From a virus (lineage: Duplodnaviria; Caudoviricetes), in the IMG/VR virus record IMGVR_UViG_3300028887_000103, positions 1-64,000 of that record: DNA of 64,000 nt. One strand, 5' to 3'. Each line of letters begins with the position of its first letter. Position 1 is the first letter of the stretch. Both the position numbers and the translations under genes were made by a program. Below, piece after piece: positions 3,277 through 45,405 of the stretch. The notes beneath the pieces were generated by a model. It was not told the origin of the DNA. It ran no database searches and was given only the letters and a program-made list of their open reading frames with translations.

Positions 3277-3366
3277 ACGACTTGGAAAAATATTCCAGAA
3301 AAGAAGGTGTGGGGGTGAAGTGTTATAATAGAATTAACAGAATAATCTTAGAAATGGACTTATAAA

Positions 3367-5373
3367 ATGACAATAGAAAATGCAAATAGTCATCCTTATA
3401 AGGTGGCTTTAACGAGTGAGTCTGATGGTATGTTCGCTAATTCCCACCCCTATAAGGTGTCTATCGTTGAGGGTGGAACTGAACTAGTTTCAGAATTACC
3501 CGAAGAAGGAAAGAAAGGGGCGATTTACGTTCTAGTCGACGACGCTGAAAATCCAACAAAAGTCTATGGGATGTATATCTATGACAACGGTTGGGTTCTG
3601 GCAGCACAACCTGTTGACCAAGCAGTTCAACTAGTCGAGGAACTTCCAGAAGAAGGAGAAGAGGGTGTCCTCTATTATGTCCCAAAAACAGGGCAAACAG
3701 ACACCTACGACTTGTACAGGTGGATAAATGACAGTTGGGTTAAAGTTGATACCGATATTGTTCTATATTCTCAAGAAGGTAACGGTATAGATGGTGCTAT
3801 GACTCAATCAGCTACGACTGCAATGAAAGGCAAAGCAAAGGTTCTCACTACAGCTAATTATAACTGGAACTCTGTGTCTAAGGATACGACAGCACCCTAT
3901 GATTCTGTGGCACTCTGGCTCTTAGAGGATGGCTTATATTCTGCTCTAGCAGGAGTAAAAGTAGGAATTTACAAGACTTTCTATTCTGAAAACCCATTAT
4001 GCTACCTAGTGAGCTCCGCAAGTAGCCAAACTAAGAACATTTATACTTTTGAAATGCACCATTCCTACATACAAAAATCTTATGGACCAGTAATAGACAG
4101 ATTCGAGGTTACAGTCGCTACTGGTGTACTATCGGCATCTGCGAGTTTTGCTTCCAGAGATACTGTAACATCTATGATTACAGACTATATTAAGAGTGGA
4201 AATGGTACTCCTTCAGGAGTTCCGATAGAGGGTGCTGGTGTTTTGTATGAAGACAAGACTAGCGGAGAGCTTTACCAATACGACGGAACTAACTGGAACA
4301 AATTTACTACTAAAAACTATACCGATGGTTTAGTCGGTGTGGCTAGAGTTCTTACTGCTGATGACTATAACTATCCAATTGACAATCCAAAAGGAGTAGC
4401 TCTCTGGCTTCTTCCAGCTGGAACATACACACTAGGTTCTGGCTGTGTAGCATACTCGTACGAGATGTCTATGCAAGGGGGTTCTCCAGCGGTAGCAGAC
4501 CAAGACGCGACGTATATAGTTGGAGTTAACGGTACTTATGGACTTCCGATTGTAAAGATTAAAAAAATGGTACAAAGCGTTGGCACTGGGCTTACCAGAA
4601 ACTTTGTTCTTTCTGCAGTCACAGTCACCAACTCCACTGGGTATAGCCCAAGTGGCTTTGAGACTATTGGACCAATACCGCACAACTCGTTGTCATCAGA
4701 TAGCACAGATATTCCACTAGCTGCTTATCAAGGTAAAGTGCTTAATGATAAAATCAGCAACATACAATCTCTTATCCGTAATTTGAGCAGTGCTGATTAT
4801 GATTATCCAGATAACAATCCAGCAGGTGTAGCTTTGTGGAGGCTTTCTGATGGGATTTATCATAGCCCTGAACTTGTTAAGGTTTATCCTACTTCTGCCC
4901 AAAGCTTGGCATTCACGACTTCATCATTCTTCATTAAAGTCTCTGGCGGTCCTAATGATGCAGTACAGCTCTATACAATGACCGGCGCAGGAGGACACAT
5001 ACGATATTTTTGGGTTGACCCTACTACTGGAGATTGTACAGATATTAACCAAGTTTTTCTAAAAGGTAATGATTGTGTTGACAATTTGCTAGCAACAACT
5101 ATCAACCGACCTCTTTCAGCAAATCAAGGTAAGGTGTTGAAAGAAACAATCGATAGTATTGCCATCAAAAATGCAGGAGCTCCAACCACAGCTACCGTAG
5201 GAACAGTAGGACAGATTTTAGAAGATACCACGAATGGTAAACTTTATATCTGCACAGCAGTTTCAGGAAGCACATATACTTGGGATGAGGTAGCGACCAA
5301 GGGCTACGTTGACAATATCGTTGGGAATATCGAGTCTGCCCTAAACATAATTAACAATGGAGGAGAGAGCTAA
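3367..5373 (+). CDS. Fibre/adhesin-like virion protein with repeated modules
   Basis: Three (V/L)L(T/S)xxxY(N/D)x..VALWxL modules; two PL(A/S)AxQGKVL fibre-type motifs; Thr/Ser/Gly-rich. Confidence 0.6.
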   Translation: MTIENANSHPYKVALTSESDGMFANSHPYKVSIVEGGTELVSELPEEGKKGAIYVLVDDAENPTKVYGMYIYDNGWVLAAQPVDQAVQLVEELPEEGEEGVLYYVPKTGQTDTYDLYRWINDSWVKVDTDIVLYSQEGNGIDGAMTQSATTAMKGKAKVLTTANYNWNSVSKDTTAPYDSVALWLLEDGLYSALAGVKVGIYKTFYSENPLCYLVSSASSQTKNIYTFEMHHSYIQKSYGPVIDRFEVTVATGVLSASASFASRDTVTSMITDYIKSGNGTPSGVPIEGAGVLYEDKTSGELYQYDGTNWNKFTTKNYTDGLVGVARVLTADDYNYPIDNPKGVALWLLPAGTYTLGSGCVAYSYEMSMQGGSPAVADQDATYIVGVNGTYGLPIVKIKKMVQSVGTGLTRNFVLSAVTVTNSTGYSPSGFETIGPIPHNSLSSDSTDIPLAAYQGKVLNDKISNIQSLIRNLSSADYDYPDNNPAGVALWRLSDGIYHSPELVKVYPTSAQSLAFTTSSFFIKVSGGPNDAVQLYTMTGAGGHIRYFWVDPTTGDCTDINQVFLKGNDCVDNLLATTINRPLSANQGKVLKETIDSIAIKNAGAPTTATVGTVGQILEDTTNGKLYICTAVSGSTYTWDEVATKGYVDNIVGNIESALNIINNGGES

Positions 5374-37023: not shown

Positions 37024-38094
37024 GTGGAGGTAAGCACATTTCCAAGAAAGGAGTTAAGAGTGGGGAATGAAGAACAAAAACGGAGTAAAATTTCGGTCAT
37101 CAATGAGGAAATATTGAGTGACAAAAATCTTACGCCATCGGAAAAGATGGTGTATGCTAGAATCTGCTATTTTGAATTGTTCTTTGAAAGTCCAAAAGAA
37201 ACAGCAGAGTATCTTGGCTTGAGTGAGTGGGCAGTCAAGTCGGCAAAAAGGAAACTTGAGCAATTGGGCTACATTATCTGTGTGCAAGATACAGGTCGTG
37301 GAAAGCAATATATTGCTGATGTCAATGTAGGTGTTGGAAATACCAATAGCAGATGTTTGGAAAAACAACATCAGGTGTTGGAAAAACCAATATCAGATGT
37401 TGGAAATAACAACATCAGATGTTTGGAAAACCAATACATAGGTAAGAATATAATAAAGAATATAGGTAAGAAAGAGAATAAGAAAGAAAGTGGGCGAGAG
37501 ACTTTTGCTAGCATTTTGGAAGAAAAGGTGGCAGATGAAGAATTGAGGGTTCTGTTTCAAGAGTTTATCAAGATGCGTAAGATGATTCGTGCTCCTTTAA
37601 CGAATTATGCTCTTAAGTTGGCTATCAACAAAACAGAAAAGTTGTCTGGGGGTGATATTGAAAAAGCCAAGCGAATAGTGGAACAGAGTATCGAGAGGTC
37701 GTGGAAAGGTCTGTTTGATGTTCCAGATGAGGTTAAGCAAAAGTCCAATGACAATCTTTACAAGCCAAAAGATGGAGAAGATATTTCTTATCGCAGAATG
37801 TTCGGGGTGTGGAAAAAGTTTCTAGGGTATTCAGTCAAGGAGACGAATGACAATGTTCAAGCGTGTAGAGATTTGCTAGCAGATATAGGCGAAGAGTCAC
37901 TGACACGGCTGATAGTGGCTCTGAAGATGCGAGGCGAGCACAAGTTTTTGACAAAAGAGTTGAAGTCGGTGTCAGATTTTGTCGGGTTAAAACAGAATGT
38001 TGGAGTAGTGCAGAGTTTCTATGATGAGCACTGGAAGTTCTGGAAGATGAGACAAGAGGCAGAGTCTAAAGGTAAGAAGGTTTGGGAATTGTAA
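37024..38094 (+). CDS. Replication initiator (N-terminal HTH, internal ori repeats); start possibly GTG 37060
   Basis: LTPSEKMVYARI..AEYLGLS..KLEQLGYI; FIKMRKMIRAPLT; iterons inside. Confidence 0.8.
   Translation: MEVSTFPRKELRVGNEEQKRSKISVINEEILSDKNLTPSEKMVYARICYFELFFESPKETAEYLGLSEWAVKSAKRKLEQLGYIICVQDTGRGKQYIADVNVGVGNTNSRCLEKQHQVLEKPISDVGNNNIRCLENQYIGKNIIKNIGKKENKKESGRETFASILEEKVADEELRVLFQEFIKMRKMIRAPLTNYALKLAINKTEKLSGGDIEKAKRIVEQSIERSWKGLFDVPDEVKQKSNDNLYKPKDGEDISYRRMFGVWKKFLGYSVKETNDNVQACRDLLADIGEESLTRLIVALKMRGEHKFLTKELKSVSDFVGLKQNVGVVQSFYDEHWKFWKMRQEAESKGKKVWEL
37328..37437 (+). repeat. Five ~22-bp direct repeats (replication-origin iterons)
   Basis: Units AG(G/A)TGT(T)TGGAAA..CAA(T/C)A(G/T)C followed by AT-rich stretch. 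Confidence 0.8.
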
Positions 38095-38838: not shown

Positions 38839-39056
38839 AACAGGAGGAATGGCCAATGACAAAATTGCCAGAATATTATAGTGTCCCGATACAATGCGTT
38901 AACTGTGGCAGTAAATTCATAGATGACGACCCAGGGTATTATTCTGACCCAGGAGTTATCGGGGAAGCAATAAATATAAAGAAAGGAATGAAAATCTGCG
39001 AAGTTGAATGTCCACTCTGCGGATGTCTAACACTAGCGAGATGGAGGGTAAGATGA
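38835..39056 (+). CDS. Zinc-ribbon protein
   Basis: CVNCG..CPLCGC. Confidence 0.55.
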   Translation: MKQEEWPMTKLPEYYSVPIQCVNCGSKFIDDDPGYYSDPGVIGEAINIKKGMKICEVECPLCGCLTLARWRVR

Positions 39057-39865
39057 GTCAAAGAGATAAAGCAAAAGTTATTCTGGAAGAATTGAAAAAC
39101 AGAGGATTCCATCCAGAGGGAGTTAAATATCAGGGTGGCTACTTCCTGTTTGATTTCGGAAAAGATATGGTCGTTCATTTTCGGCTAAAAGAGTGTAAAG
39201 GTTGGCTGTTTGCTATCTGGTGGAATGTAGATGACAAAAATCAATTCGACTTCTTTACTCAATTTGAAAAGAATATAGATAAGTTCAAGCCGACTGCTTC
39301 TAATTTTGTCCAAACCGATATATCTTATGCGAAAAAGGATGCCCGCTCTATCGTAGATTTCTATCTTCTGCCGATAATAAAGTTTATTCGGAATCATAAA
39401 TATGTGGCTTGGTGCTATGACAATTACTATTACCTCAAGAGTTGGCAGTATATGACAGGTTTCGAGGCTTGGCGTGAATATACAAAATACAGTCTGAAAT
39501 ATTACAGGTTGAAACCGTTGGTAGAAAAAAGAATGGTAAAGCGATGGAAGAAGATTATGCGAGGGATTTGCGACCAAGAACTAGAGAATTATGCCATCGT
39601 GGATGATAATGTTGGCGGGGTAATCTGCTATCCGAGATTTCATATTGTCTGCGAAAACTTTAAGGAGGAAAAAGTAGAGAAAGGTTACTGGACACTTGAG
39701 ATAGATGAACAAGATGTCAAACTAAAAAAGAAGATTGATAGGTTCAACAAAAAACTAAAAAGAATGCAGAAGAGATTCGGGCATATGTTTGATGTGGATG
39801 AAATCAGAACTCATATCGGAGTTGTCGTAAATGGAAAGAGACTTGTAAAACAGAAGAAGAAATAG
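39053..39865 (+). CDS. Hypothetical protein
   Basis: SD GGAGG before ATG 39053; 270 codons open. Confidence 0.7.
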   Translation: MSQRDKAKVILEELKNRGFHPEGVKYQGGYFLFDFGKDMVVHFRLKECKGWLFAIWWNVDDKNQFDFFTQFEKNIDKFKPTASNFVQTDISYAKKDARSIVDFYLLPIIKFIRNHKYVAWCYDNYYYLKSWQYMTGFEAWREYTKYSLKYYRLKPLVEKRMVKRWKKIMRGICDQELENYAIVDDNVGGVICYPRFHIVCENFKEEKVEKGYWTLEIDEQDVKLKKKIDRFNKKLKRMQKRFGHMFDVDEIRTHIGVVVNGKRLVKQKKK

Positions 39866-39968
39866 TATAATTAAATTGAGGACAGTGGTTCATTGGTTCT
39901 GTCCTCCAGTTTAGGTGCATTACCGGGGCTAGTCAATTCCTTTCGGCTAGTCCCGTCAAGGAGAAAAG

Positions 39969-40130
39969 ATGATTACAATAGGTATAATGATAATCGGTTT
40001 AGGAATAGGACTTATCTGCTTTGCTTTACTCCTCATCGGTGGGTTTGTCGGAATCTGTCTAATACCAGTTGCTATAGTTCTGTGTCTATTGAAGGCTCTG
40101 TGGAAAATGACTTTTGACAAAGAAAACTGA
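39969..40130 (+). CDS. 53-aa hydrophobic membrane protein (not in supplied ORF track)
   Basis: SD AAGGAG; MITIGIMIIGLGIGLICFALLLIGGFVGICLIPVAIVLCLLKALWKMTFDKEN. Confidence 0.65.
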   Translation: MITIGIMIIGLGIGLICFALLLIGGFVGICLIPVAIVLCLLKALWKMTFDKEN

Positions 40131-40142
40131 CCTTGCTATAAT
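40114..40142 (+). promoter_or_regulatory. Consensus promoter for ncRNA-A/tRNA
   Basis: TTGACA-N17-TATAAT with TG extension. Confidence 0.8.
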
Positions 40143-40149
40143 TAAAATA

Positions 40150-40446
40150 CGCATAACAAACAAGCCCATTAAAAAGTGAGTAGGTTGATAATATCGGTTT
40201 GATGATGCCGAGGTAGCCAAAAATACTGTCGTTAAGAAGATACGAGATGGGTGGATGGTGACGGCGAAGAATATCACCACGAGTCCCCAATCCAGAGGTT
40301 TAGAAGAGAGATTCGCCAAGAATATAGTTCGGTGACGCTAAACCAAACCGTGAGAACGGAGTTGCAAGGACAGTAACCTTACAAGCCGAACCAACCAATA
40401 CTAATTGCCAGCACGGGTGAAGTTATGTTTGATTGAAATGCTGGCA
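40150..40446 (+). ncRNA. Candidate structured ncRNA-A with kissing loops
   Basis: Nested stems 40194-40200/40383-40389, 40224-40230/40369-40375, 40256-40261/40274-40279, 40297-40303/40338-40344; loop-loop GGCGAA/TTCGCC. Confidence 0.6.
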
Positions 40447-40449
40447 TAT

Positions 40450-40525
40450 TGTGGGGAGATGCGGAAGTCGCATACTGGCCTCATAAACCAGTTGTTAGTA
40501 GGAGCGTTACCTGCCCCCACAACCA
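40450..40525 (+). tRNA. tRNA with CAU anticodon (elongator Met or Ile2), atypical T-loop
   Basis: 76 nt; acceptor TGTGGGG/CCCCACA plus A-CCA; D stem ATGC/GCAT; anticodon loop CTCATAA; T stem GTAGG/CCTGC. Confidence 0.8.
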
Positions 40526-40527
40526 TA

Positions 40528-40557
40528 TTGACAATGAAAATATGAATGTGCTATAAT
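40528..40557 (+). promoter_or_regulatory. Promoter for ncRNA-B
   Basis: TTGACA-N18-TATAAT with TG extension. Confidence 0.7.
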
Positions 40558-40564
40558 GTAAGCA

Positions 40565-40840
40565 GATTCGGACTCGTGCGTCGTGCACGAAGAAAAAGCA
40601 CCTTTCAGTTGTGGCAGTAGTAGCATAATAAACCCCCCAAGACGGTTAATGCTGAATGTAAATCCGAGAGGAATATATCTGGGAGGCGATAAGCCGAAGG
40701 ATGAACTGCAGAAATGTTTACATTTGAAAATCGGGCTTAAAATATATGGAAAATGCAACACGAAGCCTTGGAGCCCGTCAATGTAGAGACACTGGCGAGA
40801 GTTAGTTCCTACCTACTGTCATAACTGAAGGGTGTTTTTT
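40565..40840 (+). ncRNA. Candidate structured ncRNA-B with 28-bp closing stem and internal pseudoknot
   Basis: 40593-40620 pairs fully with 40813-40840 (four G-U pairs); crossing stems 40655-40663/40716-40724 and 40690-40697/40731-40739. Confidence 0.65.
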
Positions 40841-40858
40841 GTGTTATAATTTGGATGA

Positions 40859-40965
40859 GGGGCTGACAGGATTAGAATCTTAAAGAATGTTACGGACGAA
40901 AAAGGGTTTGAAAATAAGTCTGGAGTACTTAAGATGACGTGGTTTCGACACCACCAGCTCCACCA
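40859..40965 (+). ncRNA. Miniature tmRNA-like RNA (alanine tRNA-like domain, mRNA-like domain nearly absent)
   Basis: GGGGCTG/CAGCTCC-ACCA with G3:U70; tmRNA-type D-loop ACAGGATTAGA; P2 ATCTTAA/TTAAGAT; GAC linker; T-arm GTGGT-TTCGAC-ACCAC; TG-TATAAT at 40843-40850. Confidence 0.8.
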
Positions 40966-40978
40966 GGAGGAGAGGAAT

Positions 40979-41542
40979 ATGGGAAGACCGAAGATTAGAG
41001 AGGATTGTTCTGTTACTGGTTGTGACAAGCCCTATTTTGGTAGAGGCTACTGTGTTATGCATTATGCTCGTTGGAAGAAAAATGGAGATACTGGACCAAT
41101 AGGAAAGTATGGACAAAGGAGAAAAGTTTTTAGGACAGAAGACCACCCACTTTATGAAACTTATAGAGGTATGGTAAAAAGATGTTGTTTGAAGACGCAT
41201 ATTCACTATAAAGATTATGGCGGTAGGGGTATTAAGGTTTGCGATAGATGGTTAGGTAAAAATGGGTTTGATAATTTTATTGAAGATATGGGTGAAAAGC
41301 CAAGCGGATACAGTTTGGATAGAATAGACAATGATGGTAATTATTGCCCAGAAAATTGTCGTTGGGCTACCCATATAGAACAGGCTAGCAACAAACGTAA
41401 CAATAAAATTATTACATATAAAGGTGAAACCCATACAGCGGCAGAGTGGAGTAGGATTCTAGGTATAAGACCAGGCACATTTTCTGAACGAAGAAGGGCA
41501 TATCCTAACGACAAGGACAAATGGTTTAAGGAGTTGGTATGA
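40979..41542 (+). CDS. HNH-type endonuclease with N-terminal Zn finger
   Basis: [16 protein letters not shown]; [12 protein letters not shown]; [20 protein letters not shown]; SD GGAGG right after the tmRNA-like CCA. Confidence 0.85.
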
Positions 41543-41835
41543 GAAATCGTCTTTTTCAACAAAAAGATATTTACAATAATCGTGAGTATGTCTTAAAATC
41601 TAGGGCACGACAAGGCGATTGTTTATGGTGTTATCCGAATCATAATGAAAATCGTAGAGGACATAAGAGTAGATGGGGTAGAAAAGTGGCTTCCAGACGA
41701 CAATACACCACGGGAAAAGGCAGAAAAGAAGTAGATTGGACTAAACACCCATACTGGGATTTATGGGATGAACATTACGAAAGGAGAAACAAAGGTGTTA
41801 AACACGACCTTTATCTTGCCTGGGAATGTGCCTAG
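41539..41835 (+). CDS. Hypothetical basic protein
   Basis: ATGA overlap with upstream gene. Confidence 0.5.
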
Positions 41836-43897: not shown

Positions 43898-44524
43898 ATG
43901 GTTACGATAATTACTTTAGTTAGCAATCGGAAAGGATTTGAAAATCTGAAGAGAAATCTAGTCAGTTTTGAATCTGATTGGAAACTTGGGGTGGATATTC
44001 TTTGTATTGTTTCAGACTATGACTTATATCTAGAATGTCGGAATTTCTTGCACGAAAATGTAGATAGAGGGGAATGTCTAGTTGTCTTTGACCAAGATGC
44101 TACCTTAAAGTCTGGAAAAGAATATCTGGATACCAAGAATGAATATGTGTTCTTACTTGCCGAGAATGTCAGAGTTCCGAGTGGTGGTATCACTAAACTA
44201 TACAAAAACTATCTTGAAAAACCACAGGCAGGGTTCATCACAGGGGAGTGGAACCAATTCCCGACTGTTCGCTGGGTCAAAGATATCTATGGTGCTCCGA
44301 AGTATATCTATTCAAATGAGCCGTCACCTTATGGGTTAAGAATGGATATAGATGTGGCAGAAGTCCACGGCATAATGACAAAAACTAGTCTATACAAAGA
44401 ATTGTTCTGTGCAGAGGATTTAGATGGTTACGGTAGTCATAGTTTCGGGATACGATTAAGAAGGCAAGGATACAAAAATTATATTAACACAGGGGTAGAA
44501 TACAAATATGGAGGTAACGAGTGA
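43898..44524 (+). CDS. Divergent GT-A (family 2-like) glycosyltransferase
   Basis: TIITLVSNR..LKRNL; EYVFLLAENV (DxD position degenerate); FGIRLRRQGYKNYINTGV. Confidence 0.5.
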   Translation: MVTIITLVSNRKGFENLKRNLVSFESDWKLGVDILCIVSDYDLYLECRNFLHENVDRGECLVVFDQDATLKSGKEYLDTKNEYVFLLAENVRVPSGGITKLYKNYLEKPQAGFITGEWNQFPTVRWVKDIYGAPKYIYSNEPSPYGLRMDIDVAEVHGIMTKTSLYKELFCAEDLDGYGSHSFGIRLRRQGYKNYINTGVEYKYGGNE

Positions 44525-45405
44525 AAATAATTATGTTGAAGGGGTTGCCTGCGAGTGGAAAATCTACTTGGGCTAGGGAGCGTCAAAAGGAAGGTGGCAA
44601 TTATCTAGTCATAAGCAAAGATGAAATTCGTAAGATGTTCGGCGGGTATGCCCCCAAGCGAGAGAAAGATGTCTTAAGAGTAAGAAATGAACTGATAAAA
44701 CTGGGCATTAAACTACGCAAGAATGTAATAGTGGATGATACCAACTTGAACATCAAGCACGAAAGATATATCAGACAATTGGCAAATGAACTAGGGGTGA
44801 AGTTTGAAATCAACGATGACTTTATGGAAGTTCCACCAGAAGAATGTATAAAACGAGATTTACACCGTGGAGAAAAGGCCGTCGGTGCTAGCGTGATTTG
44901 GGATATGTATTATAGATGGGTGGCACCAGACCCACAAGTCAATTTAGATGTAAACTTTGACAAACCGAGGTGTGTGATTTGTGATGTCGATGGCACATTG
45001 GCTCTGAATACAGAGGGCAGAAGTTTCTACGATTTGTCCAGAGTTAACGAGGATACGGCTGACCCGTTTGTCTCTTGCGTAGTAGATGCTCTGTATAACT
45101 ATGGCACTGAAATCAATGGGGATAAATACCCTAGCATAATTATCTTGAGTGGAAGGGAAGAAATAAGTAGAGAAGCCACGGAGGGGTGGCTTAAACAATA
45201 TGGTATTCCTTATGACCAAGTGATAATGCGAGAAACTGGGGATAAACGGAGTGATAGTATTGTGAAGCGAGAACTCTATGAAAAATATGTAGAGCCAAAC
45301 TACTGTGTCTTGGGAGTGATAGATGATAGACCTAGCGTCTGTGCTGTCTGGCGTAGTTTAGGCTTAAGAGTTGCTCAAGTTGGTAACCCATATATTGATT
45401 TCTGA
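44521..45405 (+). CDS. pseT: Polynucleotide 5'-kinase/3'-phosphatase (T4 PseT-like)
   Basis: GLPASGKST Walker A; VIVDDTNL; HAD DVDGTL; LSGRE; IDDRP. Confidence 0.92.
   Translation: MKIIMLKGLPASGKSTWARERQKEGGNYLVISKDEIRKMFGGYAPKREKDVLRVRNELIKLGIKLRKNVIVDDTNLNIKHERYIRQLANELGVKFEINDDFMEVPPEECIKRDLHRGEKAVGASVIWDMYYRWVAPDPQVNLDVNFDKPRCVICDVDGTLALNTEGRSFYDLSRVNEDTADPFVSCVVDALYNYGTEINGDKYPSIIILSGREEISREATEGWLKQYGIPYDQVIMRETGDKRSDSIVKRELYEKYVEPNYCVLGVIDDRPSVCAVWRSLGLRVAQVGNPYIDF

What the first reader, a model, noticed from the sequence alone, without database searches (positions are those of the whole stretch)
40150..40446. ncRNA-A: multi-stem RNA with a kissing-loop interaction and its own promoter
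Seen: a perfect promoter, four nested stems, and GGCGAA (40263-40268) in one hairpin loop complementary to TTCGCC (40312-40317) in another; a GAGA-capped hairpin; no credible ORF. I could not match it to RNase P, SRP, 6S or group I/II introns. Inference: an undescribed, possibly catalytic or protein-binding phage RNA co-transcribed with the tRNA.
Basis: partly seen in the sequence, partly recalled or inferred. Interest (0 to 1): 0.7.

Follow-up and report, generated by a model that had tools for sequence, protein, structure and literature searches.

The report
New structured RNA in rumen phages
The stretch encodes a real, previously uncatalogued folded RNA of about 300 bases, shared by a small group of cattle and sheep gut phages. 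Its shape is kept by evolution, but the 'kissing loop' that drew attention is peculiar to this one phage, and what the RNA does is still unknown.

Summary
ncRNA-A is real. I found homologues in seven lineages of related gut-metagenome phage contigs (10 distinct sequences, 71% mean column identity). Every core helix is kept by compensatory changes: 99.4% of cells pair, and 12 of 31 pairs change on both sides, against 2-4 when partners are slid. Invariant G-U pairs place the RNA on the + strand.

The extended -10 box (TGnTATAAT) is invariant. It survives a reading-frame change in the small membrane-protein gene it overlaps. The full TTGACA -35 occurs only in this window.

The RNA ends in a conserved hairpin. 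In two lineages a U-run and an unrelated gene follow that hairpin. Elsewhere a tRNA(CAU) starts 3 nt later. So it is a transcription unit of its own, and the tRNA is an optional passenger.

Rfam 15 has no match, on either strand, at E up to 10. IMG/VR, INPHARED and 150 Clostridia genomes gave no further copies.

The GGCGAA/TTCGCC pairing exists here, but its partner sits in a variable arm tip that other lineages lack or replace. The GAGA loop is not conserved either.

Function is unknown. My best guess is a trans-acting, protein- or ribosome-binding RNA in a phage RNA island. The scan noted this stretch before only in an overlapping window of the same genome.

The parts
40114..40142 (+). Promoter: TTGACA, 17-nt spacer, TG-extended TATAAT
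   Evidence: Scores 12 of 12. TGnTATAAT is invariant in the four sequences aligned across it and is read by eye in L148, L152, L157 and L158. The -35 hexamer is present only in the window. The -10 box is kept although the overlapping small ORF is in a different frame and stops earlier in the window.
40149..40178 (+). Inferred 5' leader (start about 7 nt after the -10 box); in relatives it doubles as the 3' end of the small membrane-protein ORF
   Evidence: Alignments. Called genes L139 2829-3008 and L152 1775-2011 run into the RNA. The transcription start is inferred, not measured.
40179..40402 (+). Outer closing helices P0 (40179-82/40399-402) and P1 (40183-87/40392-96), enclosing the whole core
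   Evidence: P1: 4 of 5 pairs change on both sides. A different sequence forms the equivalent helix in every lineage.
40195..40388 (+). Helix P2 (40195-201 with 40382-88)
   Evidence: CGGUUUG/CAAGCCG here. Relatives have CGGUCUG/CAGACUG, UCGGUU/AACUGG, CAAC/GUUG, AAUAGU/ACUAUU and UUUUUUGGG/CUCAAAAAA.
40210..40380 (+). Helix P2a (GAGGU 40210-14 with ACCUU 40376-80), with an invariant G-U pair
   Evidence: The A-U pair becomes U-A in three sequences; 98% of cells pair.
40225..40374 (+). Helix P3 (40225-30 with 40369-74), closing the four-way junction
   Evidence: 100% of cells pair; two pairs change on both sides in 4 sequences each.
40231..40245 (+). Junction strand J3/4 with the invariant AGAUACGAG
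   Evidence: Invariant columns in the 10-sequence alignment.
40246..40291 (+). Arm P4 (40246-51/40286-91) plus P5 hairpin (40256-61/40274-79).
   Evidence: P4: 2 pairs change on both sides. P5: 4 of 6 do. The loop sequence is nearly invariant.
40292..40296 (+). Junction strand J4/6, part of the invariant UCCAGAGGU
40297..40344 (+). Arm P6. The base GGU...ACC is conserved; the tip is variable and holds TTCGCC 40312-17.
   Evidence: The tip is 26 nt shorter in L002/L139 and has different sequence in the other lineages. Each lineage still folds an arm here.
40348..40359 (+). Hairpin P7 (CCGU-GAGA-ACGG)
   Evidence: Every lineage has a hairpin at this position. The GAGA loop occurs only in the window and L002/L139.
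40360..40368 (+). Junction strand J7/3 with the near-invariant GAGUUGCA
40406..40446 (+). 3' hairpin PT: 8-bp stem, 25-nt loop
   Evidence: 100% of cells pair; 3 pairs change on both sides. It is followed by AUUUUUU in L152 and AUUUUGGUUUUG in L157. Here only AUAUU follows. The automatic terminator scan did not call these sites, because their loops exceed its 8-nt limit.
40450..40526 (+). tRNA-like cloverleaf, anticodon CAU, encoded ACCA end; co-transcribed passenger and probable 3'-end processing signal
   Evidence: Folds as a cloverleaf, z = -2.5. Not called by ARAGORN or the Rfam tRNA model. A canonical tRNA-Met sits at the same place in L002 and L158.

Best explanation
ncRNA-A is a genuine + strand structured non-coding RNA of about 250-300 nt, and it defines a new family confined so far to one clade of ruminant-gut phages. 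It is transcribed from its own extended -10 promoter, which lies in the 3' end of a small membrane-protein gene.

Fold: nested helices P0/P1, P2, P2a and P3 close a four-way junction. Three arms leave the junction (P4-P5, P6, P7), joined by long, sequence-invariant strands.

3' end: the RNA ends at a conserved hairpin. In two lineages a U-run follows, so the hairpin probably terminates transcription there. In this window transcription reads on into the tRNA(CAU)-like gene 3 nt downstream. RNase P cleavage at that tRNA's 5' end would then set the RNA's 3' end (inferred).

Function: most likely it acts in trans as a stable, compactly folded RNA that binds a protein or the ribosome, as a scaffold or decoy. 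It is one member of a phage 'RNA island' that also holds tRNA(CAU), ncRNA-B and a mini-tmRNA.

My sub-confidences: real structured + strand RNA 0.95; independent transcription unit 0.8; trans-acting protein- or ribosome-binding role 0.4.
For: - Structure: 10 distinct sequences from 7 lineages. In the five helices P2a, P3, P4, P5 and PT, 99.4% of cells pair. 12 of 31 pairs change on both sides, against 2-4 in slid controls, and 0 of 500 shuffles reach the covariation score (8-sequence version; RNAalifold).
- P1 and P2 are built from different sequences in each lineage. P6 and P7 arms are present in all.
- An independent bovine run (X2) shows the same compensatory pairs.
- Strand: G-U pairs in P2a and P4 are invariant in 10 of 10 sequences, and further G-U pairs occur elsewhere. 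On the - strand these would be mismatches.
- Promoter: 12 of 12 match. The -10 box is invariant across lineages and across a frame change.
- Independent unit: L152 and L157 end in hairpin plus U-run, followed by a glycosyltransferase or a YopX gene with no tRNA.
- Non-coding: only 26-41-aa frames, and a 26-nt indel in relatives.
- Trans-acting: the downstream neighbour differs between lineages (tRNA-like, canonical tRNA-Met, GT2, YopX), and I found no conserved alternative pairing with the 3' hairpin by eye.
- Context: GOLLD and ROOL are likewise phage RNAs near tRNA islands, and GOLLD has been pulled down with ribosomes (10.1101/2024.12.08.627333).
Against: - No transcript evidence for ncRNA-A itself.
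- All seven lineages are syntenic relatives, so context says little about function, and the effective number of sequences is low (2.18).
- No partner protein is identified.
- The long invariant junction strands fit a ribozyme or a ligand-binding aptamer equally well.
- The single-sequence fold energy is not significant (z = -1.3).
- The U-run hairpins were read by eye; the terminator scan did not call them.
Confidence: 0.55

Rival explanations
1. Riboswitch-like cis-regulator. The P1-P7 core is a ligand-binding aptamer and the 3' hairpin is its expression platform, controlling read-through into whatever lies downstream (tRNA, glycosyltransferase, YopX).
For: The order promoter, large conserved junction-rich fold, hairpin plus U-run, then a gene in L152 and L157 is the classic layout. 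Invariant unpaired nucleotides are typical of aptamers.
Against: The downstream gene differs in every lineage and is usually a tRNA. A 9-12-nt linker separates P0/P1 from the hairpin, and I found no conserved anti-terminator pairing (by eye). In most lineages no U-run follows the hairpin. No Rfam riboswitch matches.
Confidence: 0.12
2. Ribozyme. The invariant junction strands form an active site for self-cleavage, ligation or another reaction.
For: About 45 invariant unpaired positions (AGAUACGAG, ACGGC, UCCAGAGGU, GAGUUGCA) sit among stems that vary freely. That pattern is typical of catalytic cores.
Against: No match to any ribozyme family in Rfam, including RNase P, group I/II introns and the small self-cleavers. 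No conserved cleavage-site signature, and no split gene or exon context.
Confidence: 0.1
3. RNA-only multimer. Like ROOL, GOLLD or phi29 pRNA, the RNA self-assembles through loop-loop contacts. The GGCGAA/UUCGCC pair would then act between molecules.
For: Phage origin and tRNA-island context resemble ROOL and GOLLD (10.1101/2024.12.08.627333). The P5 loop is a conserved 14-nt sequence. In this window a perfect 6-bp complement exists in another loop.
Against: The complement is absent from the other six lineages. The RNA is half the size of ROOL or less. There is no Rfam match to ROOL, GOLLD or pRNA. This phage has ordinary tailed-phage structural ORFs and is not of the small phi29 type, so a pRNA-type packaging role is unlikely.
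Confidence: 0.1
4. Cis element of the upstream small membrane-protein mRNA: a structured 3' UTR that stabilises or restrains a toxin-like hydrophobic peptide transcript.
For: In every lineage but L157 the RNA directly follows, and partly overlaps, a 52-78-aa hydrophobic ORF. That ORF also has a structured 5' UTR and a promoter of its own at 39843-39871.
Against: The -10 box is kept even where the ORF frame differs. In L157 the RNA follows a tRNA-like element and its own TGnTATAAT, with no such ORF.
Confidence: 0.08
5. Not an RNA at all: a DNA-level element such as an origin or protein-binding site, or chance structure in a spacer.
For: It lies in the replication module (replication-initiator-like gene at 37024-38094). 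The single-sequence fold is not significant.
Against: Compensatory changes occur in every helix, and invariant G-U pairs would be mismatches in DNA or on the other strand.
Confidence: 0.02

Closest known systems
GOLLD and ROOL RNAs (Rfam families; cryo-EM nanocages, 10.1101/2024.12.08.627333)
   Same: Phage or prophage encoded; found next to tRNA genes (one GOLLD example lies downstream of a Met-tRNA); multi-helix folds supported by covariation; function unknown; ROOL was first seen in rumen metagenomes.
   Different: No sequence or structure match in cmscan at E up to 10. It is about 250-300 nt, against roughly 580 and over 800. A single four-way junction rather than a multi-domain pseudoknotted fold. 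Self-assembly is untested.
phi29-type packaging RNA (pRNA, an Rfam family; recalled knowledge)
   Same: A phage RNA from its own strong promoter.
   Different: No Rfam match. The loop complementarity is not conserved. This is an 80-kb tailed phage with ordinary tailed-phage structural ORFs, not a small phi29-like phage.
Candidate structured RNAs catalogued from IMG/VR (PMC10690425)
   Same: Comparative discovery of non-Rfam structured RNAs in phage intergenic regions, many near or resembling tRNAs.
   Different: Those candidates are 29-151 nt and need several IMG/VR copies. My six word and pattern scans found no other IMG/VR record with this RNA. Their alignments were not available to check.
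Large riboswitch aptamers with multi-way junctions (for example lysine, cobalamin, M-box; recalled knowledge)
   Same: Promoter-proximal, junction-rich fold with invariant unpaired nucleotides, followed by a hairpin that carries a U-run in two lineages.
   Different: No Rfam match. No constant downstream gene. No conserved anti-terminator. A tRNA usually follows.

Membership tests
Any Rfam 15 family (RNase P, 6S, SRP, tmRNA, group I/II introns, T-box, riboswitches, small ribozymes, pRNA) | Covariance-model match at or near the family's gathering score | tested here: not met
   Whole window at gathering thresholds: 0 matches. Region 39800-41000 at E up to 10: nothing meaningful over 40149-40446, only an 18-bit chance hit to a flavivirus element at E = 1.1.
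GOLLD / ROOL | Match to the Rfam model of the family | tested here: not met
   No hit at E up to 10.
GOLLD / ROOL | Phage-borne and adjacent to tRNA genes | tested here: met
   The window is a complete 80-kb virus record. A tRNA or tRNA-like gene lies directly beside the RNA in 6 of 7 lineages.
GOLLD / ROOL | Length above about 500 nt with multiple domains and pseudoknots | tested here: not met
   About 250-300 nt with one four-way junction. No pseudoknot is supported by covariation.
GOLLD / ROOL | Homo-oligomeric cage | not testable with these tools
   Needs native gels or cryo-EM.
Riboswitch with a terminator expression platform | Terminator hairpin with a U-run directly after the aptamer | tested here: inconclusive
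   A U-run follows the hairpin in L152 and L157 only. The scan tool did not call them. Here and in the other lineages no U-run follows.
Riboswitch with a terminator expression platform | Conserved regulated gene downstream and mutually exclusive anti-terminator pairing | tested here: not met
   Downstream is a tRNA-like gene, tRNA-Met, a glycosyltransferase or YopX. No conserved alternative pairing was seen, by eye.
Free-standing bacterial-type small RNA gene | Own promoter and a defined 3' end, no ORF, conserved between relatives | tested here: met
   Conserved TGnTATAAT, conserved 3' hairpin, no conserved ORF. Transcription itself is not shown.
phi29-type pRNA | Conserved complementary loops for intermolecular pairing | tested here: not met
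   Loop complementarity is found only in the window lineage.

The most novel reading that the evidence does not exclude
ncRNA-A is a new class of functional RNA: a ribozyme, or an RNA that binds and re-programmes the host translation apparatus. It would work together with the neighbouring atypical tRNA(CAU), ncRNA-B and the tRNA-like-domain-only mini-tmRNA as a phage-encoded, largely RNA-only translation-takeover or anti-defence island, each RNA driven by its own consensus promoter.
Probability: 0.15. Interest if true: 0.85.

Novelty: new variant of a known kind. Interest (0 to 1): 0.6.

Why it matters
Orphan structured RNAs with strong covariation are rare. In the past they have led to new biochemistry, including riboswitches, ribozymes and the ROOL and GOLLD cages. 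This one is compact enough (about 250 nt of core) for probing and cryo-EM. It has an unusually large share of invariant unpaired nucleotides.

It also sits in a remarkable stretch: about 800 bases of a phage genome with no credible ORF. That stretch carries three or more separately promoted RNAs, among them a tRNA that standard tools do not recognise and a 107-nt tmRNA-like molecule. Working out what ncRNA-A does would shed light on why phages place such RNAs beside their tRNA genes, which is an open question for GOLLD and ROOL too. The family is narrow and its host unknown, which limits its immediate reach.

Tried and rejected
- Rfam at gathering and permissive thresholds: nothing. L002 gave only its tRNA.
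- Phage GenBank collection by blastn with two divergent family members: no match.
- Six IMG/VR word or pattern scans: no other record. A protein-guided IMG/VR scan also found none.
- Metagenome 18-mer scan: 17 loci, of which only L002 is a true homologue.
No true hit among those returned, so it says nothing about prophages.
- Covariance model R1 against 150 Clostridia genomes plus two gut MAGs: two weak hits (20-22 bits). I read L161 and it lies in a protein-coding repeat. L160 aligns only at its ends, skipping about 131 core positions. I take both as false.
- Read laying: the two RNA runs covered only ncRNA-B, and no cover over ncRNA-A was seen in them. This is no evidence either way.
- My first reading was a mobile 'module' with unlike flanks. 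I dropped it: the flanks are diverged but syntenic.
- Shared 7- and 8-mers between the P5 hairpin and the P6 tip suggested a duplication. By my estimate, repeats of that length are expected by chance in 300 nt, so I dropped it.
- A possible tertiary pairing of the invariant CGGC in the P5 loop with the invariant GCCG at 40207-40210: both sides never vary, so it cannot be tested.
- AlphaFold model of the 285-aa upstream protein (pLDDT 88): only weak Foldseek matches, the best being the T4 MotA DNA-binding domain at E = 0.04. No link to the RNA.
- Pfam and PHROGs on neighbouring proteins: no RNA-binding candidate; PNKP confirmed further downstream.
- Supplementary alignments of the IMG/VR candidate-RNA catalogue are not held.

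Full report
**Where it lies.** The window is the first 64 kb of a complete 80,372-bp virus record that recurs in bovine and sheep gut metagenomes. ORFs run mostly on the + strand and include a very long tape-measure-sized frame. A replication-initiator-like gene lies upstream of the finding. An HNH endonuclease, a RusA-like resolvase and a DNA-polymerase exonuclease subunit lie downstream. Between 40131 and about 40930 only short, unconserved frames are found. That stretch carries three promoter-like sites: two perfect TTGACA/TATAAT matches at 40114-40142 and 40528-40557, and a TGnTATAAT at 40842. The finding is the first unit.

**Checking the observation.**
- The promoter scores 12 of 12 with an upstream TG. 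Only four such perfect sites exist in 64 kb.
- The minimum-free-energy fold shows long-range nested helices around a multi-branched core.
- GGCGAA (40263-68) and TTCGCC (40312-17) are complementary.
- CCGU-GAGA-ACGG is at 40348-59.
- ARAGORN finds no tRNA in the window. Even so, 40450-40526 folds as a cloverleaf with anticodon CAU and an encoded ACCA end.
- On its own the fold is not significant (z = -1.3 on the + strand, -1.9 on the - strand). The case therefore rests on comparative evidence.

**Finding relatives.** Rfam gave nothing for the stretch, on either strand, at gathering thresholds or at E up to 10. The phage GenBank collection and IMG/VR gave nothing either.

Laying contigs of an independent bovine run (X2) on the region revealed a 93%-identical copy. 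Its substitutions fall in compensating pairs:
- 40259 U>C with 40276 A>G
- 40260 G>A with 40275 C>U
- 40199 U>C with 40384 A>G
- 40228 G>A with 40371 C>U

A metagenome word scan recovered one true homologue, L002. Two neighbouring proteins served as handles: the 98-aa protein at 41539-41835 and the 285-aa protein at 39008-39865. With them I fetched syntenic contigs carrying five more lineages:
- L139-142
- L144/L145/L158/L159
- L148/L151
- L152
- L157

More distant relatives of the 285-aa protein (L154, L155) have tightly packed genes and no copy.

**Structure.** The MAFFT alignment of 10 distinct sequences has 71% mean column identity. Five helices align unambiguously, and they behave as follows:
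- 99.4% of cells form standard pairs.
- 12 of 31 pairs have changes on both sides, in 43 cells.
- Sliding the 3' partners by 1-3 columns leaves 32-58% of cells paired and only 2-4 such pairs.
- No shuffle in 500 reaches the observed covariation score.

The 8-sequence version including P1 gave 15 of 36 pairs, and RNAalifold independently gave 15 of 38. P1 and P2 are misaligned by MAFFT in the divergent lineages. Duplex folding shows that each lineage forms both helices at the same place from different sequences. For example, P2 reads CGGUUUG/CAAGCCG, CGGUCUG/CAGACUG, UCGGUU/AACUGG, CAAC/GUUG, AAUAGU/ACUAUU and UUUUUUGGG/CUCAAAAAA. Each lineage also folds two hairpin arms between the invariant CCAGAGGU and GAGUUGCA.

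In window coordinates the model is:
- P0/P1, 40179-87 with 40392-402
- P2, 40195-201 with 40382-88
- P2a, 40210-14 with 40376-80
- P3, 40225-30 with 40369-74
- a four-way junction with arm P4-P5 (40246-91), arm P6 (40297-344) and hairpin P7 (40348-59)
- a separate 3' hairpin PT (40406-46)

Two G-U pairs, in P2a and P4, are invariant in all ten sequences, and others come and go. On the opposite strand these would be A-C mismatches, so the functional strand is +. The junction strands and the P5 loop are almost invariant (AGAUACGAG, ACGGC.AAGAAUAU, UCCAGAGGU, GAGUUGCA) while the stems around them change.

**Promoter and ends.** TGnTATAAT is identical in all lineages. In relatives it lies inside the last codons of a 52-78-aa hydrophobic ORF, which then runs 35-90 nt into the RNA leader. 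In the window a 2-nt difference shifts that frame and the ORF stops before the -10 box, yet the box is unchanged. This argues for selection on the DNA signal rather than on the peptide. The TTGACA -35 is special to the window.

At the 3' end, PT is followed by AUUUUUU and a glycosyltransferase gene in L152. In L157 it is followed by AUUUUGGUUUUG, a new promoter and a YopX gene. The simple terminator scan missed both because their loops exceed its limit. In the other lineages a tRNA follows within a few bases:
- the atypical CAU tRNA in the window, L139 and L144
- a canonical tRNA-Met in L002 and L158
- both in L145, where the canonical gene is cut short by an inserted Endonuclease VII-family ORF

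. The RNA is therefore a unit of its own and the tRNA an interchangeable passenger. Where a tRNA follows, RNase P cleavage would define the 3' end. That step is inferred from general knowledge of tRNA processing.

**The kissing loop.** The GGCGAA side lies in the conserved P5 loop. The TTCGCC side lies in the tip of P6, which is 26 nt shorter in L002/L139 and has unrelated sequence in the other lineages. In the window the loop-to-arm duplex is matched by only 2.2% of shuffles. In the other lineages it is matched by 36-93% of shuffles. The pairing may still form in this phage, but it is not a feature of the family. The GAGA loop of P7 is likewise confined to two lineages.

**What it does.** Nothing computed here fixes the function. 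I rank a trans-acting, protein- or ribosome-binding role first, for these reasons:
- The RNA has its own promoter and end.
- Its downstream neighbour changes between lineages.
- I saw no conserved switch pairing.
- The context matches that of GOLLD and ROOL, which are phage RNAs near tRNA islands. Both have unknown function, and GOLLD has been reported to pull down ribosomes (10.1101/2024.12.08.627333).

The heavy conservation of unpaired nucleotides keeps ribozyme and aptamer readings alive. ncRNA-A occurs without ncRNA-B in L152 and L157, so it does not depend on B.

**Novelty.** No Rfam family matches. The published IMG/VR catalogue of candidate structured RNAs covers 29-151-nt motifs and needs several IMG/VR copies, which this RNA lacks (PMC10690425). 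A model search of 150 Clostridia genomes returned only false hits. This is a sample, not proof of absence. I file it as a new family of a known kind: orphan structured phage RNAs beside tRNA genes. The earlier notes of this scan cover only this same genome.

Noticed in passing
window 40450-40526; L145 1780-2430; L002 1279-1356; L158 5131-5207: The tRNA(CAU) after ncRNA-A is atypical: T-loop AGCGUUA, missed by ARAGORN and by the Rfam tRNA model. It is nevertheless conserved, with compensatory changes, in L139, L144 and L145. L002 and L158 carry a canonical tRNA-Met at the same site. In L145 the canonical gene is truncated after about 30 nt by an insert that carries an Endonuclease VII-family ORF followed by the atypical tRNA. 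This looks like a homing-endonuclease cassette bringing its own cut-resistant tRNA allele.
   Followed up: partly
window 40547-40842: ncRNA-B is a second RNA unit of about 290 nt with its own perfect promoter (40528-40557) and a U-run at its end. Near-identical copies occur in many bovine, sheep and other gut runs, including contigs from two metatranscriptome runs covering 40615-40792. It is 69-98% identical in L002, L139, L144, L145 and L148 (L158 carries the start of one, read by eye) and absent from L152 and L157. No Rfam match.
   Followed up: partly
window 40859-40965: A 107-nt mini-tmRNA. The Rfam tmRNA model aligns both ends (37.7 bits, below the gathering score of 47), with a G3-U70 acceptor stem and only 22 nt in place of the 288-nt central part. 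TGTTATAAT lies just upstream. Diverged copies exist in L002 (about 660-830, - strand) and L148 (about 3300-3400).
   Followed up: partly
L002 830-945 (- strand); L148 3185-3300: A further promoter-led hairpin-closed RNA (GUGAGGG...CCCUCAC, behind TGCTACAAT) lies between ncRNA-B and the mini-tmRNA in relatives. It is missing from the window.
   Followed up: no
window 40934-41542: An HNH endonuclease ORF (PHROG E = 7e-51) overlaps the 3' end of the mini-tmRNA. It is absent at this place in L002. Other relatives have an unrelated 187-aa ORF there.
   Followed up: no
window 39872-40130; L148 2140-2360; L158 4400-4670: The small, very hydrophobic ORF (53 aa here) upstream of ncRNA-A has its own promoter (39843-39871) and a long structured leader. 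In L158 and L148 that leader holds additional tRNA-like elements with long inserts.
   Followed up: no
window 39008-39865: A 285-aa protein with no Pfam or PHROG family but more than 50 metagenomic relatives. The AlphaFold model is confident (pLDDT 88). Its best, weak, structural match is the DNA-binding 'double-wing' domain of T4 MotA (E = 0.04).
   Followed up: partly
L157 3701-4849 (- strand): A TnpB/IS605 OrfB-family gene sits between the 267-aa protein gene and the tRNA-like element plus ncRNA-A unit in this relative.
   Followed up: no
window 46774 (+) and 28840 (-): These are the only other perfect TTGACA-N16-18-TATAAT sites in the window. 16 of the 18 TGnTATAAT sites lie on the + strand.
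   Followed up: no
window 44521-45405: A T4-type polynucleotide kinase-phosphatase (Pfam HAD_PNKP, E = 3e-39) lies 4 kb downstream of the RNA island. It is also present in relatives that lack ncRNA-A (L154, L155).
   Followed up: no
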